This document shows positions 22,033-47,322 of a stretch of 64,000 nt of DNA, piece after piece. The notes under the pieces are model-generated. The model searched no databases and was not told the origin of the DNA. It worked only from the letters and a program-made list of their open reading frames with translations. The stretch comes from an uncultured Dehalococcoidia bacterium (lineage in GTDB: Bacteria; Chloroflexota; Dehalococcoidia; Lucifugimonadales; UBA826), in contig CAYPDR010000022.1 of NCBI GenBank assembly GCA_964409595.1, forward strand, positions 20,399-84,398, in the 5' to 3' direction. Position 1 is the stretch's first letter. Every line of letters starts with the position of its first letter. The translations under genes were made by a program, and so were the position numbers.

Positions 22033-22695
22033 ATGGGTGGAGAGGCTAGGAAGAATGGCAAGACTAGGATTTTTGTTCAGGCCCGTATGACTTCGTCTAG
22101 GTACCCAGGGAAGGTGCTAGCACCTTTAAAAGGCACTCCTCTCATTGGGCATTTGATGACGAGGATATGTGAAGTGCGACCAGTTGAGGACATAATCGTC
22201 TTGACTAGTGTAGAGATCTCTGATGACCCACTGGTTGAATACCTAAATTACTTAGGGGTGCAAACCTTTCGCGGTCCTTTGGACAATGTTTTCCGAAGGT
22301 TTCAACTATGCTTAAAAGAATTTGAATGCCAATGGTTTTTTAGGATATCGGCTGACAGCCCATTATTTGAGCCTGACTTAATAAACAGAATGACTCCTTT
22401 CAGTGAGAGGAGTAAATTCGACTTGGTGACCAATGTTTTTCCTCGAAGCTTTCCTAAAGGCCATAGCTTGGAGATGTTGAAGTCAAGTGTCTTTGAAGGC
22501 ATAGATTCTTCGCTCCTTACGATTGACCAGAAAGAACATGTTACAAAGATTTACTATGACAACCCTTGCCAATATTCCATAAAGAATATCTCTTCCGGAA
22601 ATAAGGATATGGCGGAAATTAATCTTTGTGTGGATACTCTTCAGGATCTAAATAGGCTCAGCTCCTTCAATTTCCAAAATCCGTTAAAGACCTAA
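22033..22695 (+). CDS. SpsF/NeuA-type cytidylyltransferase (CTP_transf_3), module A
   Basis: The N-terminus IFVQARMTSSRYPGKVLAPLKGTPLIGH is characteristic of SpsF-like sugar cytidylyltransferases. Length is 220 aa. Confidence 0.75.
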   Translation: MGGEARKNGKTRIFVQARMTSSRYPGKVLAPLKGTPLIGHLMTRICEVRPVEDIIVLTSVEISDDPLVEYLNYLGVQTFRGPLDNVFRRFQLCLKEFECQWFFRISADSPLFEPDLINRMTPFSERSKFDLVTNVFPRSFPKGHSLEMLKSSVFEGIDSSLLTIDQKEHVTKIYYDNPCQYSIKNISSGNKDMAEINLCVDTLQDLNRLSSFNFQNPLKT

Positions 22696-22708
22696 GATAA
22701 CTTGCCTC

Positions 22709-23746
22709 ATGAAAACTGTTGAAACAGATAAAATAGAACACCTGCAAGTCGCGATCGTAGGGTTGGGTGTCGGCGAGCAGCACGCCCGTGCATTCAATAA
22801 AAACCAACGCTGTCAAATAAGATGGTTATGCGACTTTGATACAGAGAAAGCAAGCCGCCTAAGAAGTAATATAGGTTGTGTTGGGGCACTAATTACTCGC
22901 GATATTGGAGAAGTTTTAAACGATCCAGAAGTTGATGTGGTTTCGATAGCAACTTACGATCATCATCACTACAAGCAGGTCGTCGATTCCTTGAGTGCTG
23001 GCAAGCATACTTTTGTGGAGAAGCCTCTCTGCCGAGGATTAAAGGAACTGTCGAGAATCAAAGAGGTATGGCATAGACGACAGCCAGAACTTAAACTTCA
23101 ATCTAACTTAGTGTTGCGCGCAGCCCCACTTTATCAATGGCTGGAACGACTTATCATGTCCGGGGACTTCGGAGATGTATATTCCTTCGATGGGGAATAT
23201 TTGTACGGCAGACTCAGTAAGTTGACCCACGGATGGAGAAAAAATGTGCAAGACTATTCGGTACTCGAAGGTGGCGGCATACATTTAATCGATTTGATGC
23301 TTTGGTTGGTTAAGGAGAAACCTGTAGAGGTTTATGCTGTTGGTAATGGGATTTCCACCGAGTCTTCCGACTTTATTTATAACGACTTTTCTACAGCGGT
23401 TATGAAATTTTCATCAGGGCTGGTAGCTCGGATAACAGCTAATTTTGGATGTGTTCACAGACATCAACATGTAATGAGAATTTATGGAACCAACAAAACC
23501 TTTCTGTATGATGATTTGGGAGCACGTGTCCACCAGAGTAGAGACCCGGAGGTTGAGAGTTCACCAGTTTCCTTGCAACCCCTACCGTTGGGAAAGGGGG
23601 ACTTAATAGACGATTTTATCAATTCAATCCTTGATAAAAGGGATGTGGCGGAAATAACTCAGGGAACATTCGACGCCATAAGCGTCTGTGCAGCAAGCGA
23701 TATATCCATCAAGACAGGGCGTCCTGAGAAAATAGATTATGTGTGA
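22709..23746 (+). CDS. Gfo/Idh/MocA family oxidoreductase, module A
   Basis: The N-terminal Rossmann region is VAIVGLGVGEQHARAF, followed by the FVEKPL motif. Length is 345 aa. Confidence 0.8.
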   Translation: MKTVETDKIEHLQVAIVGLGVGEQHARAFNKNQRCQIRWLCDFDTEKASRLRSNIGCVGALITRDIGEVLNDPEVDVVSIATYDHHHYKQVVDSLSAGKHTFVEKPLCRGLKELSRIKEVWHRRQPELKLQSNLVLRAAPLYQWLERLIMSGDFGDVYSFDGEYLYGRLSKLTHGWRKNVQDYSVLEGGGIHLIDLMLWLVKEKPVEVYAVGNGISTESSDFIYNDFSTAVMKFSSGLVARITANFGCVHRHQHVMRIYGTNKTFLYDDLGARVHQSRDPEVESSPVSLQPLPLGKGDLIDDFINSILDKRDVAEITQGTFDAISVCAASDISIKTGRPEKIDYV

Positions 23747-24906
23747 AGTTTAATTTGAAGAATATTCCTTTTGCTCGCCCAACCCTCACCGATGATGAAA
23801 GACAGGCTGTCCATAAAGTGCTCTCCGGGCACATTCTTACCCACGGTCCTGAAACAGAATCATTTGAGGAAAAATTTCGAGATTTTGTAGGAGGGAATGC
23901 TTATTGTGTGGCTGTAAGTTCGTGCACGGCCGCACTTCACTTGGCGTATTTCCAGCTTGGTATACAGCCGGGAGACGAAGTCATAGTACCGGCGATGACT
24001 CATGTCGCTACTGCCCACGCTGTGGAACTAATGGGAGGCAAGCCTATTTTTGTCGATTGTGAGTCTGCAACAGGTAATATTAGTCCTGAAAAAATAGAAG
24101 AGAAAATTACTGGCAAAACGAAAGCAATTTCATTGGTGCATTTCCTTGGAATTCCCTGTGAATCTGATCGGATTAATCAGTTGGCAGATTCATACTCGTT
24201 GCCTCTCATAGAAGATTGTGCGCTGGCTATAGGGGCGAAATTTGGAGACGCCCATGTTGGGACAATGGGAGATGTTGGATGTTTTTCATTTTATCCGACA
24301 AAACATATGACAACCGGTGACGGAGGCATGTTTATGACAAGACATGAAAATATCGCAAAGGATATCTCCAAAATTAGGGCGTTTGGTGTTGATAGATCGC
24401 ATGGGGAGAGATCAATTCCAGGTATATATGATGTGCCGGTTTTGGGGTTGAACTACCGCATGTCTGAAATGCAGGCAGCGGTAGGCAAGGTACAAGTCGG
24501 GAAACTAAAATCGATTATTGAGAAAAGAAGCCAAAACTTTTCTAGGTTGAAAGACATGATTTCTATTCGAAACGATGTGTCAGTCTTAGATTCAACGTCA
24601 GACTTATCAAGTAATAGCCATTATTGCCTCACGGCGGTTCTGAAAGGCCAATTTTCTAATAGCCGTAATGCGATTATGGCCGAACTCAACAAAAATGGGG
24701 TCGGTACCAGCGTGTATTATCCTCACCCCGTGCCCCGATTGCAATATTACTCGAGTAAGTACGGTTACAAACAAGGGGACTATCCTAATGCAGAAGAAAT
24801 CAGCGATAGCTCCATTGCGCTCCCAGTAGGCCCACATATTTCGGATGATGACGTAGACTACATGGGCGAGGTTTTCAACTATATCGTTAATAAAAGGGAC
24901 TCATGA
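23743..24906 (+). CDS. DegT/DnrJ/EryC1/StrS-type sugar aminotransferase, module A
   Basis: PTLTDDERQAV, SSCTAALHLA and FSFYPTKHMTTGDGG (PLP lysine). GTG start overlapping the upstream stop (GTGA). Confidence 0.9.
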   Translation: MKFNLKNIPFARPTLTDDERQAVHKVLSGHILTHGPETESFEEKFRDFVGGNAYCVAVSSCTAALHLAYFQLGIQPGDEVIVPAMTHVATAHAVELMGGKPIFVDCESATGNISPEKIEEKITGKTKAISLVHFLGIPCESDRINQLADSYSLPLIEDCALAIGAKFGDAHVGTMGDVGCFSFYPTKHMTTGDGGMFMTRHENIAKDISKIRAFGVDRSHGERSIPGIYDVPVLGLNYRMSEMQAAVGKVQVGKLKSIIEKRSQNFSRLKDMISIRNDVSVLDSTSDLSSNSHYCLTAVLKGQFSNSRNAIMAELNKNGVGTSVYYPHPVPRLQYYSSKYGYKQGDYPNAEEISDSSIALPVGPHISDDDVDYMGEVFNYIVNKRDS

Positions 24907-25922
24907 TTAATACTCCTGAAAACAAAAAAATATTGTTAATAGGTGGTGCAGGTTTTATAGGGCATAACCTTGCTTTGCATTTGGCAAAGCTTGGTGGGAC
25001 TGTTGAAATAATTGACGGGTTGCAAGTAAATAATTTGCTTACATACTCATCATCTTACCCAGATCTTCATAACAAGGAATTGTATTTGAAGATTATCAAC
25101 CAGAGGCTAGATCTGTTGAGAGATGCCGGGATTCCTCTGCACCCTGTCGATGCTAGGGACTATCATGTCTTGTCCAATCTGATTAATAGGCAGATAAAGC
25201 CAGACGTAATAATACATTTGGCCGCAGTTTCTCATGCGGGGAAGTCAAATAAGGACCCACACAGTACTTTCGATCACAGTTTGAGAACTTTAGAGAATGC
25301 ATTGGATTCTGCCCGAGATCAGGTGGAGCAATTTATATATTTGTCATCAAGCATGGCTTACGGAAACTTTATGACAGAGAGGGTAACAGAAGATCATCCC
25401 TTGGAACCCATTGGAATCTATGGCGCCTTGAAAGTGGCCGGAGAAAAAATGGTTATCGCTTATCAGCAGGTTTTTGATATCCCTTACACGATTCTTAGGC
25501 CCTCCGCCCTTTATGGACCACGATGCGTGAGTCGAAGAGTTGGTCAGATTTTTATAGAAAATGCGCTTAGCAACTCTAAACTGCGTGTCGACGGTGATGG
25601 TAGTGATCGTCTGGATTTCACCTACATAGAAGATCTTGTACGTGGGATTTCGTCTGCGGTGGGCCACCCAAAGGCCGCGAACGAGATATTTAATATGACT
25701 TACGGCCAGTCAAGGTCCATTAGAGAATTAGTTGAGATCATTCAGTACCATTTTGAAGATGTAGAAATCGAGCATGTTGATCGAGACGAGTTGATGCCAT
25801 TTCGGGGAACTTTGAGCATCGATAAAGTTCGAGATGCCCTTGGGTATGAACCTGGGTTTCCTCTAGAGTTTGGGATGGAAAAATATGTCTCCTGGTATAG
25901 GGACCTTTATCACCAAGATTAG
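24903..25922 (+). CDS. NAD-dependent sugar epimerase/dehydratase (extended SDR), module A
   Basis: IGGAGFIGHNL and YGALKVAGE (YxxxK). ATGA overlap with the upstream gene. Confidence 0.8.
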   Translation: MINTPENKKILLIGGAGFIGHNLALHLAKLGGTVEIIDGLQVNNLLTYSSSYPDLHNKELYLKIINQRLDLLRDAGIPLHPVDARDYHVLSNLINRQIKPDVIIHLAAVSHAGKSNKDPHSTFDHSLRTLENALDSARDQVEQFIYLSSSMAYGNFMTERVTEDHPLEPIGIYGALKVAGEKMVIAYQQVFDIPYTILRPSALYGPRCVSRRVGQIFIENALSNSKLRVDGDGSDRLDFTYIEDLVRGISSAVGHPKAANEIFNMTYGQSRSIRELVEIIQYHFEDVEIEHVDRDELMPFRGTLSIDKVRDALGYEPGFPLEFGMEKYVSWYRDLYHQD

Positions 25923-25927
25923 GGAAC

Positions 25928-26734
25928 GTGAGGATGCCCATAAATGATTTGATCAGCGTTTCCCGTGACGATTGGTTGTGCAAAATGATGGAACGCGATG
26001 TTTTCAAAGTCGTATTTCCTGAAAACAAGGCTGGACCAGAAACATCTTTGAAATCATTGCGCTATGAATTATCCGATTTATTTAGCATGTCGCCAGATGC
26101 TTTCTACTACGTAAGAATTCCTTCTGGTGAACAATTCCAATTGGCCTACATGCAAGACTTGGGCTTTAATGTTGTTGATCTGAATGTGACATTAGGCCGA
26201 GATTCAAAAAGTCAGTTTTCTGTCAGAAGTGATAGTTTTGTGATAACCCAATGGGAAGATTCGGATGATAACGAGGATATATTGGATATTGCTTTAAAAT
26301 CCTTTAAATATTCTAGATTCCACTTAGATCCACTGATACCAAACGCTTTAGCTAATTACATAAAAAGAGAATGGATTAGAAATTATCTTAAAGGGAATCG
26401 TGGGGAGTGTTTGCTGGTAGCGACACTAGAGGGCCAACCAGTTGGATTTCTAGCAGTTTTGACTGATGTGAACCAGGGTGAAGAACTTAGAATTATAGAT
26501 CTCATAGCCGTGGGAGGAAGGCATCAGAATAGGGGAATAGGGAAAGCACTGGTGGCGCGGTTCATTGAGCTCTACGCCGGTAAAGGATTCAACCTGAAAG
26601 TCGGGACACAGGCAGCCAACATAGCTTCTATAAATCTTTATCAAAAGTTGGGATTTCACGTAGAAGAAACCTCGTACAACCTTCATGCGCACTATAGAAA
26701 TAAACGGCTTTTGCATAGTGCAACTGCGATTTAG
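25928..26734 (+). CDS. GNAT N-acetyltransferase, WecD (amino-deoxy-sugar N-acetyltransferase)-like architecture
   Basis: The C-terminal GNAT core is QNRGIGKALV. The SRFHLDP and LKVGTQAANIASINLYQKLGF blocks are colinear with what I recall of E. coli WecD. Confidence 0.65.
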   Translation: MRMPINDLISVSRDDWLCKMMERDVFKVVFPENKAGPETSLKSLRYELSDLFSMSPDAFYYVRIPSGEQFQLAYMQDLGFNVVDLNVTLGRDSKSQFSVRSDSFVITQWEDSDDNEDILDIALKSFKYSRFHLDPLIPNALANYIKREWIRNYLKGNRGECLLVATLEGQPVGFLAVLTDVNQGEELRIIDLIAVGGRHQNRGIGKALVARFIELYAGKGFNLKVGTQAANIASINLYQKLGFHVEETSYNLHAHYRNKRLLHSATAI

Positions 26735-26754: not shown

Positions 26755-27564
26755 ATGGGTGACCTTCCTCTCAAAGTAGCTGTCTTAACAACTAAAACCC
26801 CCCATCACCTATATTTTTTGAGGGAAATACGAAAGCGCCTTGCAGGAATTATTACCTTAGATTTGGTCCTTGTTGAAGAGCGGCCAGTTCCTTTCCGTAA
26901 ACTTTTTCTCAGGTATTTACGGAACCATTGGTACAATCCCGTCAAGGGAATCCTCCTTAACCCTTATATGAACATTCCATATAAACCTAAGGAGCAACAT
27001 GCTTTCGAGATGGAACGTTTTTTTTCTTCAGCGGAGTATGGATACGATGAAGGAATTTTAGTGGAGAATGTCTGGTCGGTAAATGGGAAGCGATCCACCG
27101 ACTTGTTGAATCAGGTGTCGCCTGACGTGATTATGGTTTATGGAACGGGTCTGGTAAATTCAAATATCTTCGAAATTGCGAAGCTAACATCGATCAACTT
27201 TCATGGTGGATGGCTTCCAGATTATAGAGGGTCGGACACTAACTTGTGGGCCGCCTTGAAAGGCGATTACGATAAAATTGCTGTGGCTTGCCATAAGTTG
27301 GACAAGACGTTTGATACAGGTCCTGTTTTTATGATGGAAAGACTTTTACCGGTTGCCGATTTATCTGTACCCACGATTAGGTATTACACTACACTACTCG
27401 TAATTGATATGGCTGAAAAGTTGTTACGTTCCATCTCTAATGGAACCGTGGAGGCTGTCAACCAACCAGCAAAGGGGGATTTCTTTAGATTTATGCCTTG
27501 GATCTTGAAACCTTGGGCAAATCGGGGTCTTCGAAATTATGCCCGCAATTACGTCAGGAGATAA
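26755..27564 (+). CDS. formyltransferase-fold protein (Formyl_trans_N-like)
   Basis: INFHGGWLPDYRGSDTNLWA matches the N.H.S.LP.yRG motif of formyl/acyl transferases. The substrate is unknown. Confidence 0.6.
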   Translation: MGDLPLKVAVLTTKTPHHLYFLREIRKRLAGIITLDLVLVEERPVPFRKLFLRYLRNHWYNPVKGILLNPYMNIPYKPKEQHAFEMERFFSSAEYGYDEGILVENVWSVNGKRSTDLLNQVSPDVIMVYGTGLVNSNIFEIAKLTSINFHGGWLPDYRGSDTNLWAALKGDYDKIAVACHKLDKTFDTGPVFMMERLLPVADLSVPTIRYYTTLLVIDMAEKLLRSISNGTVEAVNQPAKGDFFRFMPWILKPWANRGLRNYARNYVRR

Positions 27565-28504
27565 ATTGAGAGAATACAAACCACACGGAAGTAAAGAATA
27601 TGCTGTCATTTTGTATCATGGGATTCATGGGCCCGATGTTGATTTAGCTGGTCGTAATAGCTCAGGAAAACATATAAGTGTTTCCGAGTTTAGGAAACAC
27701 ATGGAGATAGTAGCTAATGAGTGGAATTTGGTCACTATGTCCGACATAAGATTGGCCCACCAAGGTGAAATTGAGCTCCCTGAAAGAGCCGTGGCTATCA
27801 CCGTTGATGATGGATTTTCTAACGTTTATCATCAGGCATGGCCAATACTAAAAGACTTAGGTCTCAAGGCAACTTTTTACTTAGCGACCGGATTTATAGG
27901 CACTGGGAGGATGAGCTGGACTGACCAGCTGGAAAGCATGTTGTTGGATTCATCTCTAAAAAATCTAAATGTCAAAGCTTCCGGCCAAAATAAGGAGTTT
28001 GATCTTTCTAATGTGGATAGTAAGGTTGCCACCCTCCAGGATATCAAATCCGTTTATAAGAGGCTTCCCTTCAAAGATGTAGAACAATTATTAGAAGATG
28101 TAAAAAACCAATTAGATTGTGGACCGGATTCAACGCACCAACTTTACGAGATGTTAAATTGGGACCAAGTTAGAGAGATGAATGAGGAAGGAACTTTTGA
28201 TTTTGGGGCCCACACGGTGGACCATATTCCTGTTTCTCGGATCCCGTATGAGGAAATGAAATATCAAGTATCGGCGTCTTTGGAAAAAGTTTCTGACGAA
28301 CTTGATAGTGAGATAAGGGTGTTTTCGTACCCGGAAGGGCAGTCAGACGATTACGATCAGACGTCCATAGACTATCTAAAGTCCATTGGGGTGGATATGT
28401 GTCCGACTGCTATAGAAGGGGTTAACAATTACAAAAAGACAGATCCATTCCACATTAGTAGATGTATGATTGGGTTTGAAGGTAGATCTTTTGTATTAGA
28501 TTAA
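27539..28504 (+). CDS. polysaccharide deacetylase (NodB homology domain)
   Basis: ITVDDGFSNVY (the Asp-Asp motif) and HTVDH (metal His). 26-nt overlap with the upstream gene. Confidence 0.75.
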   Translation: MPAITSGDKLREYKPHGSKEYAVILYHGIHGPDVDLAGRNSSGKHISVSEFRKHMEIVANEWNLVTMSDIRLAHQGEIELPERAVAITVDDGFSNVYHQAWPILKDLGLKATFYLATGFIGTGRMSWTDQLESMLLDSSLKNLNVKASGQNKEFDLSNVDSKVATLQDIKSVYKRLPFKDVEQLLEDVKNQLDCGPDSTHQLYEMLNWDQVREMNEEGTFDFGAHTVDHIPVSRIPYEEMKYQVSASLEKVSDELDSEIRVFSYPEGQSDDYDQTSIDYLKSIGVDMCPTAIEGVNNYKKTDPFHISRCMIGFEGRSFVLD

Positions 28505-41855: not shown

Positions 41856-43928
41856 ATGCTTGCCATAATACAGGCGAGGATGGCCTCCACGAGACTCCCA
41901 GGAAAGATGCTTGCCGATATAGATGGGCAGCCCATGCTGTGGCACGTGGTGAATAGAACAAGGCGTTCTAGCCTAGTTGATCGTCTAATAGTAGCCACTA
42001 GTGTAAATTCCGGAGATGATCCGATCGTTCAATTTTGCGCTCGGAATAATATCGACTGTTTTCGCGGGTCAGAAGATGATGTTCTGGATCGTTTTTATCA
42101 AGCAGCCAAGTCAGCAAAGGCAGATAGCATAATTAGGATAACAGGGGATTGTCCTCTACTAGACTCGAGTCTGCTTGATGAGGTTGCTCGGATTTACACC
42201 ACAGGTGACTTTGATTATGTGACAAATAGTTTGCGTTATACCTATCCTGACGGTCTTGATGTAGAAGTTTTTTCATACAAAGCATTAGAAAGGGCTTGGA
42301 CTGAGGCTAAATCGCCCAGAGAACGAGAGCATGTTGTGTCATATTTTAAGTACTCCGGTAAGTTTAAAATAACAAATGTGGACAATCCTAAAGGGGCTGT
42401 TGGTGAAAAGTATAGGTGGTCTGTCGACGAACCAGTTGACTTGGAATTCGTTAGAGAAGTGTACCGTAGACTTTCAAAGGGAAAGAATTTTGACTTTGGT
42501 ATGGATGAGGTTGTCAATCTATTGTGTGAAAATCCTGAAATTACTGATATCAACACGGGGATTAATAGGAATGAGGGAAGCTTCACATCATATGCTAATG
42601 AGCCGCCTATACCCGAGCAGGTTCGAACCCTCAAACGTTCATTAGAACTGAAAGAGGAGGCAACTAGATTAATTCCCGGATATACTCAAACTTTCAGCAA
42701 GGGTCCTTTACTTTTTATTCAGGGCGTTTCGCCTGTATACCTGTCCAAAGGACTGGGAAGCCATGTTTGGGACGTTGATCAAAATGAATACATAGATTAC
42801 CCGATGGCTTTGGGACCTGTAATACTGGGCCATAATTATCCGGCTGTCACACAAGCAGTTACCACGCAAATAAACCTCGGATCTAGTTTTTCTCTTGCCC
42901 ACCCCTTGGAGTTGGAAGTCGCCTCGTTATTAGTCGATCAAATACCTTGTGCTGAAATGGTTCGGTTCGGCAAGAACGGGTCTGACGCGACGTCTGGCTC
43001 AGTCAGAGCCGCCAGAGCATTCACCGGTAGAGATATTATCGCCTGTTGTGGGTACCACGGATGGCAAGATTGGTACATCGGTACCACAACTCGCGGAGAA
43101 GGAGTGCCAGAGGCTGTCGCTGAATTGACAATACCGTTTACGTATAATGACTTTTCCAGTTTGGAAAAAATATTTGCCGAAAATCCTGGTCGAGTAGCGG
43201 CGGTGATTATGGAACCAATCGGTGTGGAAGAACCGAAGGACGAATTCTTGAGCAAGGTTCGTGAATTAACCCGTCGGGAGGGATCCGTACTTATTTATGA
43301 TGAGGTAGTAACAGGATTCCGGTTAGGGCTCGGGGGCGCTCAAGAATATTTTGGAGTCACTCCTGACTTGACATGTGTGGGAAAAGGTATGGGGAATGGA
43401 TTTCCTATTTCTGCCGTTGTAGGCAGGAAAGAAATCATGAAAATATTTAATGACATCTTCTTCTCATTTACTTTTGGTGGTGAAGCCGTGTCTTTAGCGG
43501 CCTCCAAGGCTACTATCCAGGAAATGATAGAGAAGCCTGTCATTGAACATCTGTGGCAACAGGGACAGAGGCTGCAAGATGGGTTCAATGTTTTAGCAGA
43601 GACCTACAATGTTGGGGCCTATTTGCAGTGTGTCGGGTTGCCTCCACACACGGCAATTTCCTACAAAGATGGTTCCGAGAAATCGGGAACATCTACGGAG
43701 ACAGACCCCTTGTTGATAAAAAGTTTATTCCAGCAAGAATGTGTGAAGCGGGGAGTACTTGTTTCGAGTTCTCAAAACATGTCCTTCAGTCATAGCAACC
43801 AAGATATTGATTACACTCTTAGAGTTTACCGCACTTCGATGGAAATTTTGTCTGTCGCTCTAAAGGAAGGAGACTTATTGTCGCGCCTAGAAGGACCTCT
43901 AGTGGAACCAGTATTTCGCAACCCGTAA
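41856..43928 (+). CDS. bifunctional fusion: SpsF/NeuA-type cytidylyltransferase (aa 1-~240) + class III aminotransferase (GSA-aminomutase-like, aa ~260-690)
   Basis: The N-domain has IIQARMASTRLPGKMLADIDGQPML and RITGDCPLLD. The C-domain has GSHVWDVDQNEYIDY, IMEPI, DEVVTGFR and CVGKGMGNGFPISAV (PLP Lys). It is a single uninterrupted 690-codon ORF. Confidence 0.8.
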   Translation: MLAIIQARMASTRLPGKMLADIDGQPMLWHVVNRTRRSSLVDRLIVATSVNSGDDPIVQFCARNNIDCFRGSEDDVLDRFYQAAKSAKADSIIRITGDCPLLDSSLLDEVARIYTTGDFDYVTNSLRYTYPDGLDVEVFSYKALERAWTEAKSPREREHVVSYFKYSGKFKITNVDNPKGAVGEKYRWSVDEPVDLEFVREVYRRLSKGKNFDFGMDEVVNLLCENPEITDINTGINRNEGSFTSYANEPPIPEQVRTLKRSLELKEEATRLIPGYTQTFSKGPLLFIQGVSPVYLSKGLGSHVWDVDQNEYIDYPMALGPVILGHNYPAVTQAVTTQINLGSSFSLAHPLELEVASLLVDQIPCAEMVRFGKNGSDATSGSVRAARAFTGRDIIACCGYHGWQDWYIGTTTRGEGVPEAVAELTIPFTYNDFSSLEKIFAENPGRVAAVIMEPIGVEEPKDEFLSKVRELTRREGSVLIYDEVVTGFRLGLGGAQEYFGVTPDLTCVGKGMGNGFPISAVVGRKEIMKIFNDIFFSFTFGGEAVSLAASKATIQEMIEKPVIEHLWQQGQRLQDGFNVLAETYNVGAYLQCVGLPPHTAISYKDGSEKSGTSTETDPLLIKSLFQQECVKRGVLVSSSQNMSFSHSNQDIDYTLRVYRTSMEILSVALKEGDLLSRLEGPLVEPVFRNP

Positions 43929-43951: not shown

Positions 43952-44437
43952 TTGAATTACAAACTTAGTGAATTTGTGGTGCGAGTAGCTGAAATGAGCG
44001 ACGCACCATTATTTTGGGATTGGGCCAACGATCGAGAGGTCAGGCAAAATTCGTGGTCTTCAAAGGAAGTGGAGCTGACTTCACATTTGTCCTGGTTCAA
44101 GGGCAAAATAGAATCGAAGGATTCGAGAGTCTATGTGCTAGAATCGGAGGTAGGTCCGGTCGCTCAAGTGAGGTATGACCGCACACTTTGCAATGAAGCT
44201 GAGATAGACTTTTCAGTGTCATCAAAATGGCGGGGTCAGGGGGTAGGCACAGAGGCTCTGAGACTCACAAAGGAAGATGCGCGTGTTTTCCTGGGAGTTT
44301 GCAGACTATTTGGCATTGTGAAAAGCAATAATTTCGGTTCATGTAAGGCGTTCTTAAAAGCAAGTTTTGTAGAGGGCGACCAAACCGAAATTAAGGGGCA
44401 ACCGTGTAGGACATTTTACTGGCCTAAAAGTCCTTAG
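43952..44437 (+). CDS. small GNAT acetyltransferase (PseH-sized, candidate 4-amino sugar N-acetyltransferase)
   Basis: 161 aa with WRGQGVGTEAL. It sits immediately upstream of the second NeuB-family synthase. Confidence 0.65.
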   Translation: MNYKLSEFVVRVAEMSDAPLFWDWANDREVRQNSWSSKEVELTSHLSWFKGKIESKDSRVYVLESEVGPVAQVRYDRTLCNEAEIDFSVSSKWRGQGVGTEALRLTKEDARVFLGVCRLFGIVKSNNFGSCKAFLKASFVEGDQTEIKGQPCRTFYWPKSP

Positions 44438-44463: not shown

Positions 44464-45492
44464 TTGCAGAACCTCGGTAGTATAAAAATCGCGGGTAAAA
44501 CCATTGGTTATGGTAGTCCGACATTCATAGTCGCGGAAGTCGGTATAAATCATAGCGGTGACCTAGATCTGGCCCATAAATTGGTTGACGGAGCTGCCGA
44601 CGTTGGGGCCGATTCCATAAAATTTCAGACGATTGATGCTGATTCAAGCTATGTACCGGGCACTCCATCCCATGAGGTGTTTGAGGGAGCCGCATTCACC
44701 TTAGATCAGTATAAGGAACTGCTCATTCATTGCGAGGAACGGGAGATAATTTTCTTTACCACCCCAGGGGATTGGCCGTCTCTAGAAATTTGTAGGAAGT
44801 TACCAGTTCCTGCAATAAAGATAAGTTCTGGGTTAATGACGAATGTCCCAATTATACTAGAGGCAGCGAAAATGGAAGTTCCGCTAGTTATATCTACCGG
44901 GGGATCGTATCTCTGGGAAATCGGCGAAGTGGTAACCAAATTGGAGGAATTAGGAAAAACTGATTTTGCTTTGCTTCACTGTGTGAGCATTTACCCCGCG
45001 AGCGATGATAAATTAAATCTCAGGGCAATTGGAGCTATGCAAGCAGCTTTTCCTTACCCTATCGGGTATTCCGACCACAGCCTAGGCAAGGTTGCCCCTT
45101 TGGCCGCAGTCACCTTGGGAGCAACTCTTATAGAAAAACATTTCACAATTAGTAAAACACTACCTGGAGGAGACAATTTTTTGTCAAGTGAACCCGATGA
45201 ATTTAGAGAGATGGTCCGGGAAATTAGAGATTGTGAGAAGATGCTTGAAGGTGGTGTAAAAAGACCACATGTGGATGAAATGGGATTTCGGTCGGGATAC
45301 AGAAGGCGTCTGGTTGCGAACCAAGATATTTCTTCAGGACAAAAATTAACTTCAGAGCTAGTTGGGTTAAAGCGCCCGCTGAAGCCTGCGGGATTAGGGC
45401 CAGAGTTTTTTGACAGCGTTATAGGTAGGAGAGCGACTCGAAACCTGCGTAAACATGAGCCCATCGGATGGGACTCAATTACCAAAGCTTGA
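44464..45492 (+). CDS. NeuB-family nonulosonic acid synthase (copy 2; PseI-like by context)
   Basis: VAEVGINHSGD, SIKFQT and a C-terminal SAF-like domain. It shares a sub-cluster with pseB/pseC. Confidence 0.85.
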   Translation: MQNLGSIKIAGKTIGYGSPTFIVAEVGINHSGDLDLAHKLVDGAADVGADSIKFQTIDADSSYVPGTPSHEVFEGAAFTLDQYKELLIHCEEREIIFFTTPGDWPSLEICRKLPVPAIKISSGLMTNVPIILEAAKMEVPLVISTGGSYLWEIGEVVTKLEELGKTDFALLHCVSIYPASDDKLNLRAIGAMQAAFPYPIGYSDHSLGKVAPLAAVTLGATLIEKHFTISKTLPGGDNFLSSEPDEFREMVREIRDCEKMLEGGVKRPHVDEMGFRSGYRRRLVANQDISSGQKLTSELVGLKRPLKPAGLGPEFFDSVIGRRATRNLRKHEPIGWDSITKA

Positions 45493-45506
45493 CATGAAGC
45501 AAGAAT

Positions 45507-46565
45507 GTGATTGGTAAAAGTTTTAAGGTTTTAATCACTTGCGTTGGCGGATTTTATGGCCGTGACACAATAGAGGCTCTTAAATCCGATAAGGAATTGG
45601 ATGTGACAGTGGTTGGTGTGGATTCTGACGAGACTGTTCCAAACCGGCATTTTACCGATATGTTCAGTGTAGTGCCTAATGCGGAAGCCCGTCCGGAAGA
45701 TTTTGTAGAAACACTCCTAACTCTCTGCAGTGATTTTTCTATAGACGCGATCGTTCCGGGTTCGGACGAAGAGGCATATGCATTATCTAGAGCTAAGCTT
45801 GACTTCCGTAAGTTAGGCACAGAGTGCGCGGTTCAAGATTTGGAAACTATGGAGTTAATTAGGGATAAGTTAGTATTCTTTCAAAAAATCTCAAATGAAT
45901 CTTTTAACATCCCTAAATTTGCTGACATATCTGTTGTAGAGGATCTGAAAGCAGAAGCTTCACGATTAGGCTATCCGAGCCGTCGTATCATACTGAAACC
46001 ACGCGTCGGTAGAGGCGCGAGAGGCTTGATCGTTTTAGATGAAACTGTTAGGGCCCCCTCCCGTGGTACTGAATCAAGGGGTTACTGGCTAGGAGACCTT
46101 GAGTCCGCAGTCAATATGCTTGAAAAAAAAGATCGGCTTCTAAATTTGATCGGCATGGAATTTCTTCCTGGGGACATCTATGATGTCGATTGTCTAGCCA
46201 AGTCAGGCGATCCTATTTATATAGTTCCAAGAAAGCGTCTGTGGGATTCACCCTTTTCTCGTGGAATCGAGGGTCACGTCATTGAACATGATCAAGAGAT
46301 AGTAGACATCACTAGTCGAATAGTTGCGGCCTTGAAATTGGGATATGCCTTTGATTGTGACTTCGGCACGCATGAAGGTGGCGGGGTCGGTATCCTTGAG
46401 GTCAATCCTAGATGGAGTGGATCCGTAGCAGCTTCACGGGCATCCGGAGTTAACATTCCAGCATTATTGGTTAGAGACTTAATGGGTTTACCTCTTCCCG
46501 ATTTGGAAGTCGTCCATGGAGCTAGCATATTTCCAGTAAGTCGAATGGAATTTTTTAGAGCGTAA
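45507..46565 (+). CDS. ATP-grasp domain protein
   Basis: ILKPRVGRGARGLIVLD, MEFLPGDIYDVDCL and ILEVNPRWSG are typical ATP-grasp blocks. Confidence 0.7.
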   Translation: MIGKSFKVLITCVGGFYGRDTIEALKSDKELDVTVVGVDSDETVPNRHFTDMFSVVPNAEARPEDFVETLLTLCSDFSIDAIVPGSDEEAYALSRAKLDFRKLGTECAVQDLETMELIRDKLVFFQKISNESFNIPKFADISVVEDLKAEASRLGYPSRRIILKPRVGRGARGLIVLDETVRAPSRGTESRGYWLGDLESAVNMLEKKDRLLNLIGMEFLPGDIYDVDCLAKSGDPIYIVPRKRLWDSPFSRGIEGHVIEHDQEIVDITSRIVAALKLGYAFDCDFGTHEGGGVGILEVNPRWSGSVAASRASGVNIPALLVRDLMGLPLPDLEVVHGASIFPVSRMEFFRA

Positions 46566-46614
46566 GGACAGATCTATTGAACTGTAGTTATACAAGTGTT
46601 CATGATAGTTATTC

Positions 46615-47322
46615 GTGTTGGGGGCTGAGAGTATTACAAACATTCTTGTGATAGCAGCACATCCAGATGATGAAGTTTTAGGATGTGGAGGGACAATTCT
46701 CACTACTGCCCCGGAAGACGTGGTTATTATTGGTATTCTTGGTGAAGGAATCACTTCCCGATATCCCAAACGAGATGAGGCCCCTATAGAAGAGTTGAAC
46801 TCTCTAGAATTGCAGGCGAAACAGGTCTCCAGCCTTTTGGGGGCATCGGACCTCGTTCTAGGAGGATTGCCAGACAACAGGTTTGACAGTCTTGATATGT
46901 TGGATATTGTGCAAACTATCGAACAATGGATCGATAAATACAATCCGGGAGTTGTTTACACCCATCATCCGGGTGATCTGAACATCGACCACTCCACCAC
47001 CTATAGGTCTGTGTTGACAGCCACTAGACCGACGAAGGGCTCGGGCGTAAAAGAACTTTATACCTTCGAAGTGCCCTCCTCCACTGAATGGGCTTTCCAA
47101 TCATTATCGCCACCGTTCATGCCCAACACTTTTGTCGATGTCTCAGACGTTATTGACAGAAAGGTGCAGGCTTTAAATGTTTATAAAGATGAGGTTCGTG
47201 ACTTTCCACATCCGCGTTCTTCAGAAGGATTAAAGGTTGTTGCTAGGCGATGGGGTTCCGTAATCGGAACCAATTATGCTGAAGCATTTCAATTAATTAG
47301 ATCTATACGCCGTGATAATTGA
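46615..47322 (+). CDS. PIG-L / LmbE family N-acetyl-sugar deacetylase
   Basis: VIAAHPDDEVLGCGG and HPGDLNIDH (the metal/His motif). Confidence 0.85.
   Translation: MLGAESITNILVIAAHPDDEVLGCGGTILTTAPEDVVIIGILGEGITSRYPKRDEAPIEELNSLELQAKQVSSLLGASDLVLGGLPDNRFDSLDMLDIVQTIEQWIDKYNPGVVYTHHPGDLNIDHSTTYRSVLTATRPTKGSGVKELYTFEVPSSTEWAFQSLSPPFMPNTFVDVSDVIDRKVQALNVYKDEVRDFPHPRSSEGLKVVARRWGSVIGTNYAEAFQLIRSIRRDN

What the first reader, a model, noticed from the sequence alone, without database searches (positions are those of the whole stretch)
22033..47322. Two separate NeuB-centred nonulosonic-acid (NulO) pathways in one locus, with the hexose-release step unassigned
Module A (22033-29528) encodes an SpsF/NeuA-type cytidylyltransferase, a Gfo/Idh/MocA oxidoreductase, a DegT aminotransferase, an SDR, a WecD-like GNAT, a formyltransferase-fold protein, a NodB deacetylase and a NeuB-family synthase. 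Module B (35900-47322) encodes unambiguous PseB and PseC, an AsnB-like enzyme, a Gfo/Idh/MocA oxidoreductase, a GNAT, a cytidylyltransferase-aminotransferase fusion, a PseH-sized GNAT, a second NeuB-family synthase, an ATP-grasp protein and an LmbE deacetylase. Each module therefore has its own condensing enzyme, its own CMP-activating enzyme and its own aminotransferase/acyltransferase set. That implies two different 5,7-diamino (or related) nonulosonates, or one highly decorated sugar plus a second keto-sugar acid. I could not find a PseG-type UDP-sugar hydrolase or a NeuC/LegG-type hydrolysing 2-epimerase in either module. Canonical Pse, Leg and Neu routes need one of these before the NeuB step. 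Either an unrecognised enzyme does this job (candidates: NodB 27539-28504, formyltransferase-fold 26755-27564, LmbE 46615-47322) or the gene lies outside the window.
Basis: partly seen in the sequence, partly recalled or inferred. Interest (0 to 1): 0.8.

Follow-up and report, generated by a model that had tools for sequence, protein, structure and literature searches.

The report
Two nonulosonic-acid cassettes, no sugar-release gene
A large surface-polysaccharide locus, probably from a Dehalococcoidia-like bacterium, carries two unrelated gene cassettes for sialic-acid-like nine-carbon sugars; neither has the usual enzyme that frees the sugar from its nucleotide carrier, although close relatives of one cassette do have it.

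Summary
All 18 ORFs exist at the stated coordinates. Two NeuB-family synthases, only 33% identical, sit in one co-directional locus. No PseG or NeuC/LegG signal was found anywhere in the 64-kb window.

The interpretation needs revision in four ways.
1. Each module is a conserved cassette that occurs on its own in other phyla, and both are larger than stated: A runs 22033-33918 and B runs 34280-47322.
2. Module B is a pseudaminic-acid-type pathway whose relatives normally carry a true PseG. PseG was present in 19 of 23 comparable loci. It is either fused to the PseH-like acetyltransferase at the position of the window's 43952-44437 gene or stands alone just after the LmbE gene. The window's lineage lacks it, yet its Module B genes are under purifying selection.
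3. LmbE also co-occurs with PseG in relatives, and the NodB/formyltransferase pair co-occurs with LegG in a published Kuenenia cluster. They are best read as N-acyl editing enzymes, not sugar-release enzymes.
4. Module A also lacks a 4,6-dehydratase. It lacks PseG/NeuC in all five related loci examined.

The release step is most likely encoded outside the window. A non-homologous solution for Module A remains possible.

The parts
22033..22695 (+). Module A: SpsF-like cytidylyltransferase (CTP_transf_3)
   Evidence: Pfam CTP_transf_3, 63 bits. No PseF match was listed at E<=0.001, and all matches fall far below the KdsB cut-offs. It lies next to the Gfo gene in the window, L002, L008 and L010.
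22709..23746 (+). Module A: Gfo/Idh/MocA oxidoreductase, 'Gfo-A' subfamily
   Evidence: Pfam. It forms a distinct subfamily with the L002, L003, L008 and L010 proteins: 187-439 bits among themselves and at most 68 bits to Gfo-B/PtmF-like proteins. It overlaps the DegT gene by 4 bp.
23743..24906 (+). Module A: DegT-family sugar aminotransferase
   Evidence: NCBIfam PseC 291 bits (cut-off 423) and LegC family 223 bits (cut-off 420), so it is below both.
24903..25922 (+). Module A: extended SDR, Pal/epimerase-like, not a 4,6-dehydratase
   Evidence: 'LSSSMAYG' aligns with 'vSTDEvYG' of two RmlB structures and with 'mSTCMvYD' of Pal. The motif is conserved in L002, L003 and L008 and reads 'LSSGAVYG' in L010.
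25928..26734 (+). Module A: WecD-like GNAT N-acyltransferase
   Evidence: NCBIfam WecD 59-71 bits; Pfam Acetyltransf_1. In L003 and L008 a full-length formyltransferase takes its place.
26755..27564 (+). Module A: sugar N-formyltransferase-like protein
   Evidence: PDB sequence matches to GDP-perosamine formyltransferase, ArnA and PseJ. The motifs 'NFHGGWLPDYRG' and 'FDTGPV' preserve the Asn-His-Asp triad.
27539..28504 (+). Module A: CE4/NodB deacetylase
   Evidence: Pfam Polysacc_deac_1, 75 bits. 'TFDDG' and 'HTVDH' are invariant across the window, L002 and L003 proteins.
28518..29528 (+). Module A: NeuB-family synthase A
   Evidence: NeuB+SAF domains. NeuB_NnaB 280 bits (cut-off 400) and PseI 233 bits (cut-off 340). 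It belongs to an AsnB-adjacent clade found without PseG or NeuC.
29758..31590 (+). Module A: AsnB-type amidotransferase, always next to NeuB-A
   Evidence: TIGR01536, 383 bits. It lies next to NeuB-A-type genes in the window, L002, L003, L008, L009 and L010.
31587..32720 (+). Module A: WbuX/PseA-type N-acetyl-sugar amidotransferase (makes acetamidino groups)
   Evidence: TIGR03573, 315 bits, above its cut-off of 203. A homolog is present in all six NeuB-A-type loci.
32705..33097 (+). 130-aa ORF of unknown family inside Module A
   Evidence: No Pfam or NCBIfam hit. It was not found in three or more related loci.
33094..33918 (+). Module A: SAM-dependent methyltransferase
   Evidence: Pfam Methyltransf_23, 74 bits.
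34280..35740 (+). Module B: 486-aa GT-B protein, likely CMP-nonulosonate glycosyltransferase
   Evidence: The C-terminal half weakly matches Capsule_synth/KpsC and the BFO_1060 family (T. forsythia Pse/Leg transferase). The 'KEHP' and 'YPLHxEPE' motifs are conserved. The AF2 model has pLDDT 90 and a GT-B fold. It lies next to PseB in L005, L007 and L094 and co-occurs with PseG. Profile comparison with PseG gives only 36% probability over 53 columns.
35900..36868 (+). Module B: PseB, inverting UDP-GlcNAc 4,6-dehydratase
   Evidence: TIGR03589, 513 bits, above its cut-off of 408. It carries the 'LSTDKAV' signature and is the only dehydratase-type SDR in the window.
36905..38098 (+). Module B: PseC aminotransferase
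   Evidence: TIGR03588, 458 bits, above its cut-off of 423.
38248..40065 (+). Module B: AsnB-type amidotransferase
   Evidence: TIGR01536, 288 bits. It is present at this position in L093 and L094 but not in L005 or L007.
40082..41113 (+). Module B: Gfo/Idh/MocA oxidoreductase, 'Gfo-B'/PtmF-like subfamily
   Evidence: It scores 277-280 bits to the L012 Gfo and to the Gfo domain of the triple fusions. It is fused to the cytidylyltransferase-aminotransferase in L018, L019, L023 and L035.
41175..41741 (+). Module B: GNAT 1 (acylates an amine, probably one added late)
   Evidence: Pfam and NCBIfam GNAT; PseH only 28 bits (cut-off 93). It is conserved next to the Gfo and fusion genes in L005, L007 and L012.
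41856..43928 (+). Module B: cytidylyltransferase fused to a class-III (HemL-like) aminotransferase
   Evidence: Pfam CTP_transf_3 103 bits plus Aminotran_3 172 bits. PRK06209 414 bits. More than 565 relatives in metagenomes. The N-terminal domain scores PseF 28.8 bits against a cut-off of 206.
43952..44437 (+). Module B: GNAT 2, the PseH-equivalent; in relatives this gene carries an N-terminal PseG domain
   Evidence: It aligns with residues 350-481 of the L012 PseG::GNAT fusion at 31% identity. PseH 23.7 bits. PseG+GNAT2 fusions sit at this position in 15 related loci.
44464..45492 (+). Module B: NeuB-family synthase B (SpsE-like), probable PseI role
   Evidence: NeuB+SAF domains. Best PDB match is SpsE 1vli, 205 bits. 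It falls in a clade whose members (L005-7, L011, L012) all have PseG nearby.
45507..46565 (+). Module B: ATP-grasp ligase
   Evidence: Pfam ATPgrasp_Ter and PylC-like_N. It is conserved after NeuB-B in L005, L007, L011 and L012.
46615..47322 (+). Module B: PIG-L/LmbE N-deacetylase
   Evidence: Pfam PIG-L, 71 bits. The 'AAHPDDE' and 'HHPGDLNIDH' motifs are intact. It co-occurs with PseG in seven loci.
47323..47764 (.). 442-bp non-coding gap at the position where relatives L006 and L007 encode a stand-alone PseG
   Evidence: L006 14682-15785 and L007 14674-15780 pass the PseG equivalog cut-off (184 and 198 bits against 153.6). The window gap shows no PseG remnant. The same gap is present in L093 and L094.

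Best explanation
The region is the sugar-precursor part of a locus of about 50 kb for a surface polysaccharide or glycoconjugate. All genes run in the same direction, the locus is preceded by MarR-like and NusG-like regulators, and it is followed by glycosyltransferases and an ABC exporter. The closest genome match is a Dehalococcoidia MAG. It holds two evolutionarily independent nonulosonic-acid (NulO) cassettes.

**Module B (34280-47322), a pseudaminic-acid-type route**
- PseB and PseC make UDP-4-amino-4,6-dideoxy-L-AltNAc. This step is shown by equivalog scores.
- The GNAT at 43952-44437 acetylates the amino group. This is inferred from its positional homology to the PseH half of PseG::PseH fusions.
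- A UDP-sugar hydrolase must then free the hexose. None is encoded here.
- NeuB-B condenses the hexose with PEP, and the N-terminal domain of the 690-aa fusion makes the CMP-sugar.
- The Gfo-B oxidoreductase, the fused class-III aminotransferase and GNAT 1 then probably oxidise, transaminate and acylate the CMP-sugar. This is inferred from Gfo::cytidylyltransferase::aminotransferase triple fusions and from the ElaA/ElaB precedent.
- LmbE plus the ATP-grasp protein exchange an N-acyl group.
- The 486-aa KpsC/BFO_1060-like GT-B protein probably transfers the sugar.

**Module A (22033-33918), a Leg/ptm-like set**
- Its conserved core is NeuB-A, AsnB, a WbuX amidotransferase and the block CTP_transf_3-Gfo-DegT-SDR-acyltransferase.
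- A NodB deacetylase plus formyltransferase pair swaps N-acetyl for N-formyl.
- It has neither a 4,6-dehydratase nor a hydrolase, so it depends on precursors made elsewhere. In this window the only possible source of a 4-keto-6-deoxy sugar is PseB.

**The release step**
The missing hexose-release enzyme is most likely a PseG/NeuC-type gene outside the 64-kb window, acting in trans.
For: **Each module is a conserved cassette**
- Module A-type loci: L002, L008 (Dehalococcoidia MAG), L003 (its NeuB is the one NCBI names from Thalassospira alkalitolerans) and L010 (Kofleriaceae MAG).
- Module B-type loci: L005-L007, L012, L093, L094 and dozens of metagenome loci.

**PseG is the normal partner of Module B-type cassettes**
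- PseG was found in 27 of 48 loci that have NeuB plus the fusion.
- It was found in 19 of 23 loci that also have PseB and PseC.
- The L006, L007, L011 and L012 proteins pass the NCBIfam PseG cut-off.

**None of the other Module B genes substitutes for PseG**
LmbE, the ATP-grasp protein, Gfo-B and the 486-aa GT each co-occur with PseG in related loci.

**Module B is functional without a PseG in cis**
- dN/dS is 0.04-0.29 against L094 and 0.05-0.17 against L093, where dS exceeds 1.
- There are no internal stop codons.

NodB, the formyltransferase-like protein and LmbE all keep their motifs.

**Published precedents**
- Kuenenia: a deacetylase plus formyltransferase pair in a leg-like cluster that still has legG.
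- ElaB/ElaA/ElaC: a CTP-transferase, a Gfo/Idh/MocA enzyme and an SDR that act at the CMP-Leg level (PMC13656337).
- BFO_1060/Tanf_01245: a genetically proven Pse/Leg transferase (PMC5420450).

**Dehydratase and synthase evidence**
- PseB is the only SDR in the window with a dehydratase signature.
- The two NeuBs fall in separate context-defined clades.
Against: - No PseG or NeuC gene outside the window could be shown. Only 64 kb of a contig of about 157 kb was available.
- The absence of PseG/NeuC within +-10 kb in all five Module A-type loci, from three phyla, is hard to put down to chance placement in trans. It suggests this cassette may not need such an enzyme.
- Three further PseB+PseC+NeuB+fusion loci (L051, L064, L068) also lack PseG within the sequence held.
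- Neither NeuB reaches any curated equivalog cut-off, so the Pse and Leg assignments rest on gene context.
- The CMP-level roles of the Gfo proteins and the aminotransferase domain are inferred from gene fusions and an analogy. No assay supports them.
- That PseB feeds Module A is an inference for this window only. L003 and L010 show no PseB nearby.
Confidence: 0.55

Rival explanations
1. Module A-type cassettes do not use an NDP-hexose route at all. NeuB-A condenses PEP with a common hexose or hexosamine, and the small cytidylyltransferase activates the product. Amino groups are then installed on the CMP-sugar by the translationally coupled Gfo-A oxidase and DegT transaminase, in the manner of KdnB/KdnA for Kdo8N or ElaA for CMP-Leg. 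The GNAT or formyltransferase acylates, and the SDR reduces or epimerises. On this reading no 4,6-dehydratase and no PseG/LegG-type hydrolase is required for Module A.
For: - All five Module A-type loci lack both a dehydratase-type SDR and PseG/NeuC.
- The order CTP_transf_3-Gfo-DegT-SDR is conserved, with 4-bp overlaps.
- The ElaB/ElaA/ElaC precedent shows cytidylyltransferase, Gfo and SDR acting on a CMP-NulO.
- Gfo-A is a separate subfamily that was never seen with PseG or NeuC.
Against: - ManNAc, the usual substrate, itself needs NeuC or another epimerase, and none is present.
- DegT-A scores best against PseC, an enzyme that acts on NDP-sugars.
- No biochemical precedent exists for DegT enzymes acting on CMP-NulOs.
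- The sample is only five loci with +-10 kb of flank each.
Confidence: 0.2
2. A non-homologous enzyme encoded in the locus releases the hexose. The most plausible is the Gfo-A oxidoreductase. It would use tightly bound NAD+ to oxidise C3, eliminate the nucleotide, add water and reduce again, as in GH109/GH4 glycosidases and the NanOx sialic-acid oxidoreductase. In the window's lineage this activity could also serve Module B, which would have allowed loss of PseG.
For: - Gfo-A has no assigned role in canonical pathways and is present in every PseG/NeuC-less Module A locus.
- The fold family has precedents for NAD-assisted elimination and hydration (PMC7535918, listed; the mechanism itself is from my own knowledge).
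- The PseG-less Module B lineage is the one that lies next to Module A.
Against: - No direct evidence exists.
- The related Gfo-B/PtmF-like subfamily co-occurs with PseG or NeuC and is fused to the cytidylyltransferase, which points to a different role.
- The tight coupling of Gfo-A to DegT suggests an oxidase-transaminase pair.
- Whether L093 and L094 carry Module A is not known.
Confidence: 0.12
3. One reading: the NodB deacetylase, the formyltransferase-fold protein or the LmbE deacetylase performs the hexose-release step.
For: Only their unexplained presence next to the synthases and the absence of PseG/NeuC.
Against: - All three keep the catalytic motifs of their own reaction types.
- LmbE co-occurs with a bona fide PseG in seven related loci.
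- A deacetylase plus formyltransferase pair co-occurs with legG in Kuenenia, whose NulO carries a free amine and an N-formyl group.
- The minimal Module A-type locus L010 lacks both NodB and the formyltransferase, and still has no PseG or NeuC.
Confidence: 0.03
4. Module B is a decaying remnant in this lineage. Loss of PseG inactivated the pathway, and only one NulO is made.
For: PseG is missing from a cassette that normally has it.
Against: - All Module B genes are intact.
- They show dN/dS of 0.04-0.29 against L094 and 0.05-0.17 against L093, across synonymous divergence above 1.
- The same PseG-less arrangement is kept in three loci.
Confidence: 0.05

Closest known systems
Campylobacter jejuni flagellar glycosylation locus (pse and leg/ptm genes, Cj1293-Cj1337)
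   Same: - One locus holds two NeuB-family synthases (PseI and LegI) and two cytidylyltransferases.
- It has PseB/PseC, a WbuX-type amidotransferase (PseA/PtmG) and a methyltransferase (PtmH).
- It has an oxidoreductase/cytidylyltransferase/SDR trio (PtmF/PtmB/PtmA).
- It produces two different 5,7-diamino NulOs.
(Gene lists are; the rest is from my own knowledge.)
   Different: - C. jejuni encodes PseG, LegG and LegB.
- Here the sugars go into a polysaccharide-type locus with GT4 enzymes and an ABC exporter, not onto flagellin.
- Neither NeuB here reaches the PseI or NeuB/LegI equivalog scores.
- C. jejuni has no NodB/formyltransferase pair, no LmbE/ATP-grasp pair and no aminotransferase fused to the cytidylyltransferase.
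Ca. Kuenenia stuttgartiensis leg-like cluster (SugarBase preprint, 10.64898/2026.04.20.719630)
   Same: A deacetylase and a formyltransferase are embedded between legB/legF/legC-like genes and neuB. The preprint links them to a CMP-NulO with one free amine and one N-formyl group. This is the same logic as the NodB plus formyltransferase pair of Module A.
   Different: - The Kuenenia cluster includes legG and a legB homolog.
- Module A has neither, but does have Gfo-A, AsnB and WbuX.
Acinetobacter baumannii KL49 ElaB-ElaA-ElaC (CMP-Leg5,7Ac2 8-epimerisation)
   Same: A cytidylyltransferase, a Gfo/Idh/MocA oxidoreductase and an SDR are encoded together and act on the CMP-activated NulO (PMC13656337). 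This matches the gene content 22033-25922 of Module A, and the Gfo-B plus cytidylyltransferase pairing of Module B.
   Different: - Here an aminotransferase is inserted (Module A) or fused (Module B), which suggests amination rather than epimerisation.
- Sequence relatedness to ElaA and ElaC was not established. The PDB sequence searches returned only generic Gfo hits.
Tannerella forsythia Pse/Leg loci with the Tanf_01245/BFO_1060 transferase
   Same: A Pse (or Leg) biosynthesis cluster is coupled to a dedicated GT-B NulO transferase whose conserved C-terminal domain carries an HP motif (PMC5420450). The window's 486-aa protein matches that family's C-terminal domain weakly.
   Different: - T. 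forsythia has PseG.
- The match is only 36 bits against a cut-off of 200, so the 486-aa protein belongs to a different family.
Bacillus subtilis sps genes (SpsC-SpsG) and the B. thuringiensis Pen/Pal pathway
   Same: - NeuB-B is most similar to SpsE among solved structures (205 bits).
- The small cytidylyltransferases are SpsF-like.
- SDR-A is most similar to Pal.
   Different: Both Bacillus pathways include a PseG-type hydrolase (SpsG, Phy). This statement is from my own knowledge and from PMC13317340 and PMC5109656.

Membership tests
Pseudaminic acid pathway (PseB, C, H, G, I, F) | PseB: inverting UDP-GlcNAc 4,6-dehydratase | tested here: met
   35900-36868 scores 513 bits on TIGR03589, above its cut-off of 408. 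The T-D-K signature 'LSTDKAV' is present.
Pseudaminic acid pathway (PseB, C, H, G, I, F) | PseC: C4 aminotransferase | tested here: met
   36905-38098 scores 458 bits on TIGR03588, above its cut-off of 423.
Pseudaminic acid pathway (PseB, C, H, G, I, F) | PseH: N4-acetyltransferase | tested here: inconclusive
   43952-44437 scores only 23.7 bits on TIGR03585 (cut-off 93). It is, however, the positional and sequence homolog (31% identity) of the GNAT half of PseG::PseH fusions.
Pseudaminic acid pathway (PseB, C, H, G, I, F) | PseG: UDP-sugar hydrolase with the RxDxxxxIGxGH motif | tested here: not met
   No TIGR03590 hit in any ORF. The six-frame profile search gave a best E of 0.48. Relatives L006, L007, L011 and L012 do pass the cut-off.
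Pseudaminic acid pathway (PseB, C, H, G, I, F) | PseI: Pse synthase | tested here: inconclusive
   NeuB-B scores 227 bits on TIGR03586, below its cut-off of 340. Its clade is nevertheless PseG/PseB/PseC-associated.
Pseudaminic acid pathway (PseB, C, H, G, I, F) | PseF: CMP-Pse synthetase | tested here: not met
   The N-terminal domain of the fusion scores 28.8 bits on TIGR03584 (cut-off 206). It matches only the general CTP_transf_3 family.
Legionaminic acid pathway (LegB, C, H, G, I, F) | [quoted passage not shown] | tested here: not met
   SDR-A scores 103 bits on TIGR04180 (cut-off 475). It lacks the acid/base pair that follows the catalytic Ser/Thr.
Legionaminic acid pathway (LegB, C, H, G, I, F) | LegC-family aminotransferase | tested here: not met
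   DegT-A scores 223 bits on TIGR04181 (cut-off 420).
Legionaminic acid pathway (LegB, C, H, G, I, F) | LegG/NeuC: hydrolysing 2-epimerase (Epimerase_2) | tested here: not met
   No PF02350 or TIGR03568 hit in any ORF. The six-frame NeuC profile search gave a best E of 0.02.
Legionaminic acid pathway (LegB, C, H, G, I, F) | LegI/NeuB synthase (TIGR03569) | tested here: not met
   NeuB-A scores 280 bits and NeuB-B 288 bits, against a cut-off of 400. NeuC-associated NeuBs form a separate clade.
ElaBAC-type CMP-NulO tailoring trio | Cytidylyltransferase, Gfo/Idh/MocA oxidoreductase and SDR encoded together | tested here: met
   22033-25922 carries the three genes, with a DegT gene inserted. This order is conserved in L002, L008 and L010.
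ElaBAC-type CMP-NulO tailoring trio | Orthology to ElaA/ElaC, and activity on a CMP-NulO | not testable with these tools
   The ElaA/ElaC sequences could not be identified among the PDB hits. Enzyme activity needs an assay.
GT107/KpsC-like and BFO_1060-like CMP-ulosonate glycosyltransferases | GT-B fold with an HP motif in the C-terminal, CMP-binding domain | tested here: met
   The AF2 model has pLDDT 90 and a GT-B fold. 'KEHP' is present at residues 337-340, with K337 invariant and E338 nearly invariant in the family.
GT107/KpsC-like and BFO_1060-like CMP-ulosonate glycosyltransferases | Profile membership | tested here: inconclusive
   Capsule_synth scores 24.4 bits, just above its cut-off of 20. 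BFO_1060 scores 35.6 bits (cut-off 200) and TIGR04396 scores 25.5 bits (cut-off 125). KpsC in the PDB matches at E = 1.4e-4.

The most novel reading that the evidence does not exclude
NeuB-A-type cassettes may be an undescribed route to amino-nonulosonic (or longer) acids. These cassettes comprise NeuB-A, AsnB, WbuX and the block CTP_transf_3-Gfo-A-DegT-SDR. They are found in Chloroflexota, Rhodospirillales-like Alphaproteobacteria and Myxococcota.

On this reading the route needs neither an NDP-hexose 4,6-dehydratase nor a PseG/NeuC hydrolase. There are two ways this could work:
- amino groups are installed after condensation, on the CMP-sugar, by an oxidase-transaminase pair; or
- Gfo-A itself releases the hexose by NAD-assisted elimination and hydration.

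The same activity could explain why the neighbouring Pse-type module has been able to do without its PseG.
Probability: 0.25. Interest if true: 0.8.

Novelty: new variant of a known kind. Interest (0 to 1): 0.5.

Why it matters
Nonulosonic acids shape bacterial surfaces, phage recognition and immune evasion. Their pathways are predicted from gene content, using the rule that a PseG or NeuC/LegG step precedes the NeuB step.

This locus shows two things.
- A widespread Pse-type cassette, marked by a cytidylyltransferase-aminotransferase fusion with more than 565 metagenomic relatives, can persist under purifying selection without PseG in cis.
- A second widespread cassette, the NeuB-A clade, lacks both the dehydratase and the hydrolase in every locus examined.

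If the release enzyme is simply elsewhere in the genome, the lesson is practical: locus-based NulO prediction will miss or misjudge such pathways. If it is not, there is an undiscovered enzyme or an undescribed late-amination route to find. The Gfo::cytidylyltransferase::aminotransferase triple fusions also give a directly testable prediction: some bacteria make tri-amino NulOs by oxidation and transamination at the CMP-sugar level.

Tried and rejected
1. **Gfo/Idh/MocA as the missing hydrolase in both modules (my own hypothesis).** Rejected for Module B. Gfo-B-type proteins co-occur with PseG in 11 loci and with NeuC in others, and are fused to the cytidylyltransferase-aminotransferase in four loci. 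For the separate Gfo-A subfamily it survives only as a low-probability rival.

2. **The 486-aa GT-B protein as a cryptic PseG/NeuC.** The top Foldseek hits were UDP-GlcNAc 2-epimerases, including NeuC. However, TM-scores were only 0.24-0.32 and the hits were mixed with unrelated GT-B enzymes. Comparison with a PseG profile gave 36% probability over 53 columns. The protein co-occurs with PseG in L005-7 and L085. It carries the KxHP motif of KpsC-type enzymes. Rejected.

3. **The GT4 at 47765-48979, which occupies the place of PseG.** It is an ordinary Glycos_transf_1 protein with no PseG signal.

4. **Promoter and terminator scan of 28400-48200.** Both counts were below shuffle expectation, so no module boundaries could be inferred.

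5. **The genome-contig scan with the NodB alignment.** It returned only one locus, so a statistical test across named genomes was not possible for Module A.

6. **Sequence searches of both Gfo proteins against the PDB.** These gave only generic dehydrogenase hits.

8. **The Schoenhofen 2009 Leg-pathway paper.** It could not be retrieved, so statements about PtmF and PtmA rest on memory.

Full report
**1. What is in the window**

The 64-kb window is almost entirely co-directional. After housekeeping genes (TIM, MiaA, DapF, HflX, SmpB) and a tRNA-Arg, a polysaccharide locus begins. In order it contains:
- a PMT_2-like membrane protein, a 4-epimerase-type SDR, a Bac_transf initiating transferase and a Wzy_C protein on the opposite strand;
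- a MarR-like regulator and a NusG-like regulator (16845-18109);
- two UDP-sugar dehydrogenases and a UDP-glucuronate decarboxylase homolog;
- the region under study (22033-47322);
- six Glycos_transf_1 (GT4-type) glycosyltransferases, an ABC exporter, a third UDP-sugar dehydrogenase, a third AsnB paralog and a GME-like SDR.

The only genome-collection relative is an uncultured Dehalococcoidia MAG with the same gene order and 51-82% protein identity. The source is therefore probably a Dehalococcoidia-like Chloroflexota bacterium. Identical proteins occur in metagenome assemblies only.

**2. Check of the observation**

- PseB and PseC pass their curated equivalog cut-offs.
- Neither NeuB reaches the NeuB/LegI cut-off (280 and 288 bits against 400) or the PseI cut-off (233 and 227 bits against 340).
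- Neither cytidylyltransferase approaches the PseF cut-off.
- The two NeuBs are 33% identical, so they are not recent duplicates.

No PseG or NeuC is present. This rests on NCBIfam and Pfam scans of all ORFs of at least 120 aa, and on six-frame searches with profiles I built from PseG and NeuC proteins of related loci.

**3. Module B is a conserved Pse-type cassette that normally includes PseG**

Close relatives of NeuB-B (L005/L006, L007; 65% identity) share this order: [about 480-aa GT-B protein]-PseB-PseC-Gfo-GNAT-[cytidylyltransferase::class-III aminotransferase]-GNAT-NeuB-ATP-grasp-(2-hydroxyacid dehydrogenase, methyltransferase)-PIG-L.

A more distant Omnitrophota-type locus (L012; 52% identity) has a 501-aa Glyco_tran_28_C+GNAT protein directly upstream of NeuB. 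Its GNAT half aligns with the window's 161-aa GNAT at 43952-44437.

A metagenome scan with the fusion protein returned 80 loci from more than 565 confirmed relatives. I built a PseG profile seeded with the L012 N-terminal domain.
- It found PseG in 27 of 48 loci that hold NeuB plus the fusion.
- It found PseG in 19 of 23 loci that also hold PseB and PseC. One of the other four has NeuC and three have neither.
- It also picked up stand-alone proteins of 349-368 aa in L006 and L007, immediately after PIG-L, and in L011. The precomputed Pfam annotation had left these blank. They pass the NCBIfam PseG equivalog cut-off (184-204 bits against 153.6) and carry the RxDxxxxIGxGH motif.

In the window, the position after PIG-L is a 442-bp gap with no PseG remnant. 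The same arrangement is found in a locus whose NeuB-B is 98% identical (L094) and in one at 82% (L093).

The Module B genes are intact. Their dN/dS is 0.04-0.29 against L094 and 0.05-0.17 against L093, at dS above 1. This lineage has therefore kept a working module for a long time without PseG in cis.

**4.

PIG-L, the ATP-grasp protein, Gfo-B and the 486-aa GT-B protein each co-occur with PseG in several loci. None of them is a PseG substitute.
- LmbE has intact zinc-site motifs. With the ATP-grasp ligase it is best read as an N-acyl exchange pair.
- In four loci the Gfo protein is fused in front of the cytidylyltransferase-aminotransferase, giving proteins of 972-1043 aa.
- Published structures show that ElaB (cytidylyltransferase), ElaA (Gfo/Idh/MocA) and ElaC (SDR) oxidise and reduce C8 of CMP-legionaminic acid (PMC13656337).
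- Together these suggest that Gfo-B, the aminotransferase domain and GNAT 1 oxidise, transaminate and acylate the CMP-sugar. This is an inference.

The 486-aa protein gives a confident GT-B model (pLDDT 90).
- Its C-terminal half matches KpsC/Capsule_synth and the BFO_1060 family. The founding member of that family is the genetically proven Pse/Leg transferase of Tannerella forsythia (PMC5420450).
- It keeps a KxHP motif.
- Foldseek ranks UDP-GlcNAc 2-epimerases, including NeuC, first. TM-scores are only 0.24-0.32 and other GT-B enzymes are interleaved.
- Comparison with the PseG profile is insignificant.

I read it as the NulO transferase.

**5. Module A is a different, also conserved, cassette that lacks two steps**

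NeuB-A relatives (45-70% identity) are numerous. NCBI calls them only 'N-acetylneuraminate synthase family protein'.

I examined five independent loci for the shared core: the window, L002, L008 (Dehalococcoidia), L003 (its NeuB is the one NCBI names from Thalassospira alkalitolerans) and L010 (Kofleriaceae). The core is CTP_transf_3, Gfo, DegT, SDR, an N-acyltransferase (a GNAT, or a full-length formyltransferase instead), NeuB, AsnB and a WbuX-type amidotransferase. Four of the five also have the short formyltransferase-like protein and the NodB deacetylase. AsnB is always adjacent to NeuB-A. This is also true in L009, where the pair sits beside a canonical PtmE-Gfo-NeuB-NeuC set.

None of the five loci has PseG or NeuC within +-10 kb, by Pfam or by my profiles.

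The SDR is not a 4,6-dehydratase.
- Its 'LSSSMAYG' aligns with 'STDEVYG' of RmlB structures and resembles Pal and the 4-epimerases.
- This holds in all five loci.
- PseB is the only dehydratase-type SDR in the whole window.

NodB and the formyltransferase-like protein have intact catalytic motifs, and the latter matches sugar N-formyltransferases such as PseJ. A 2026 preprint links a deacetylase plus formyltransferase pair in a Kuenenia leg-like cluster to a CMP-NulO with one free amine and one N-formyl group, and that cluster still has legG. These two proteins are therefore N-acyl editors.

The Gfo of Module A belongs to a subfamily distinct from Gfo-B/PtmF-like proteins, scoring at most 68 bits against them.

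**6. Phylogenetic placement**

I built a neighbour-joining tree of 62 NeuB proteins from the window and the fetched loci, each labelled by its neighbouring genes.
- NeuB-B falls in a PseG-associated clade with L005-7, L011 and L012.
- NeuB-A falls in the AsnB-adjacent clade that lacks PseG and NeuC.
- NeuC-associated NeuBs form a third clade.

**7. Synthesis**

The two-module reading is right. The modules are larger than stated: A runs 22033-33918 and B runs 34280-47322.

Module B is a Pse-type de novo pathway with extensive late tailoring and a lineage-specific absence of PseG. Module A is a Leg/ptm-like set without a dehydratase or a hydrolase. In this window it can obtain a 4-keto-6-deoxy sugar only from PseB.

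The simplest account of the missing release step is a PseG/NeuC-type gene outside the window, and I give this account a confidence of 0.55. The consistent absence in all Module A-type loci keeps two less conventional readings alive:
- late amination at the CMP-sugar level, so that no NDP-hexose hydrolase is needed (0.2);
- a non-homologous release enzyme, with Gfo-A the best candidate (0.12).

Decay of Module B is contradicted by the selection analysis (0.05).

**8. Novelty**

Two NulO pathways in one locus are well known, for example in Campylobacter. The enzyme families here are all known. What is new:
- the cassette architectures have not been characterised experimentally;
- one cassette lacks PseG in cis in this lineage, although its relatives carry it;
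- the other lacks both the dehydratase and the hydrolase in every locus examined;
- Gfo::cytidylyltransferase::aminotransferase fusions exist.

I rate this a new variant of a known kind, of moderate interest.

Noticed in passing
window 21038-21103 (start of the UXS-like gene 21101-21985): The NAD-binding motif '[11 protein letters not shown]' of the UDP-glucuronate decarboxylase homolog is encoded in frame upstream of the first ATG/GTG/TTG. The listed ORF therefore starts after its Rossmann glycine motif. This points to a non-canonical start codon (for example ATC at 21038 or ATA), or to a sequence error. The L008 homolog is 313 aa against 294 aa here.
   Followed up: partly
window 16845-18109: A MarR-type HTH protein overlaps a NusG-domain paralog by 19 bp, directly upstream of about 46 kb of co-directional, tightly packed sugar genes. 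This looks like a dedicated antitermination and regulator pair for one very long operon.
   Followed up: no
L018 8960-12046, L019 6618-9704, L023 273-3404, L035 2-2920: Triple fusion proteins of 972-1043 aa: Gfo/Idh/MocA, then cytidylyltransferase, then class-III aminotransferase. This is a Rosetta-stone link between the three activities. It predicts oxidation and transamination of a CMP-nonulosonate.
   Followed up: partly
L071 9745-13107; L050 and L064 (NeuB hits in 798-aa ORFs); L088 (NeuB+fusion, 776 aa): Further unusual multi-domain fusions in related metagenome loci. One is an 1120-aa protein with PseG at its C-terminus. Others are NeuB domains inside ORFs of 776-798 aa.
   Followed up: no
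window 50852-51964: A soluble 370-aa ORF between the ABC exporter and a GT4 has no Pfam or NCBIfam match. It is conserved in L093 and L094. Its dN/dS against L094 is 0.68, far higher than its neighbours, although this rests on few substitutions. The sequence 'PFGWGEIAYRDFEIFISGAALL' looks like a glycosyltransferase C-terminal motif.
   Followed up: partly
L093 721-2376: In the relative whose NeuB-B is 82% identical, a 551-aa protein with no Pfam hit lies between PseB and PseC, and no homolog of the 486-aa GT-B protein was found in the locus. It may be an alternative transferase.
   Followed up: no
window 29758-31590, 38248-40065, 58250-60157: There are three AsnB-type amidotransferase paralogs in one locus. 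The first is invariably adjacent to NeuB-A-type synthases in other genomes, which suggests a role in NulO chemistry rather than in uronic-acid amidation.
   Followed up: partly
window 9079-9155: A tRNA-Arg(TCT) lies between smpB and the thioredoxin-like gene, a few kb upstream of the polysaccharide locus. No tmRNA gene was detected next to smpB. GC content is uniform (0.40-0.47), so nothing marks the locus as an island.
   Followed up: no
L003 409-1512 and 4017-8269; L009 13152-15426: Loci with a NeuB-A-type synthase often carry a second NeuB and extra cytidylyltransferases. Examples are the locus whose NeuB NCBI names from Thalassospira alkalitolerans (L003) and L009, which has a canonical NeuB-NeuC pair. 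Two synthases per locus seems to be a recurring feature of this clade.
   Followed up: partly
SugarBase preprint 10.64898/2026.04.20.719630: The preprint reports CMP-activated ulosonic acids with a C10-type backbone, and CMP-linked HexNAc-like species, in Magnetospirillum gryphiswaldense. No gene cluster was assigned to them. Many NeuB-A relatives come from Alphaproteobacteria, several of them Rhodospirillales-type by name (Thalassospira, Magnetovibrio, Ferrovibrio). A link is pure speculation but could be tested.
   Followed up: no
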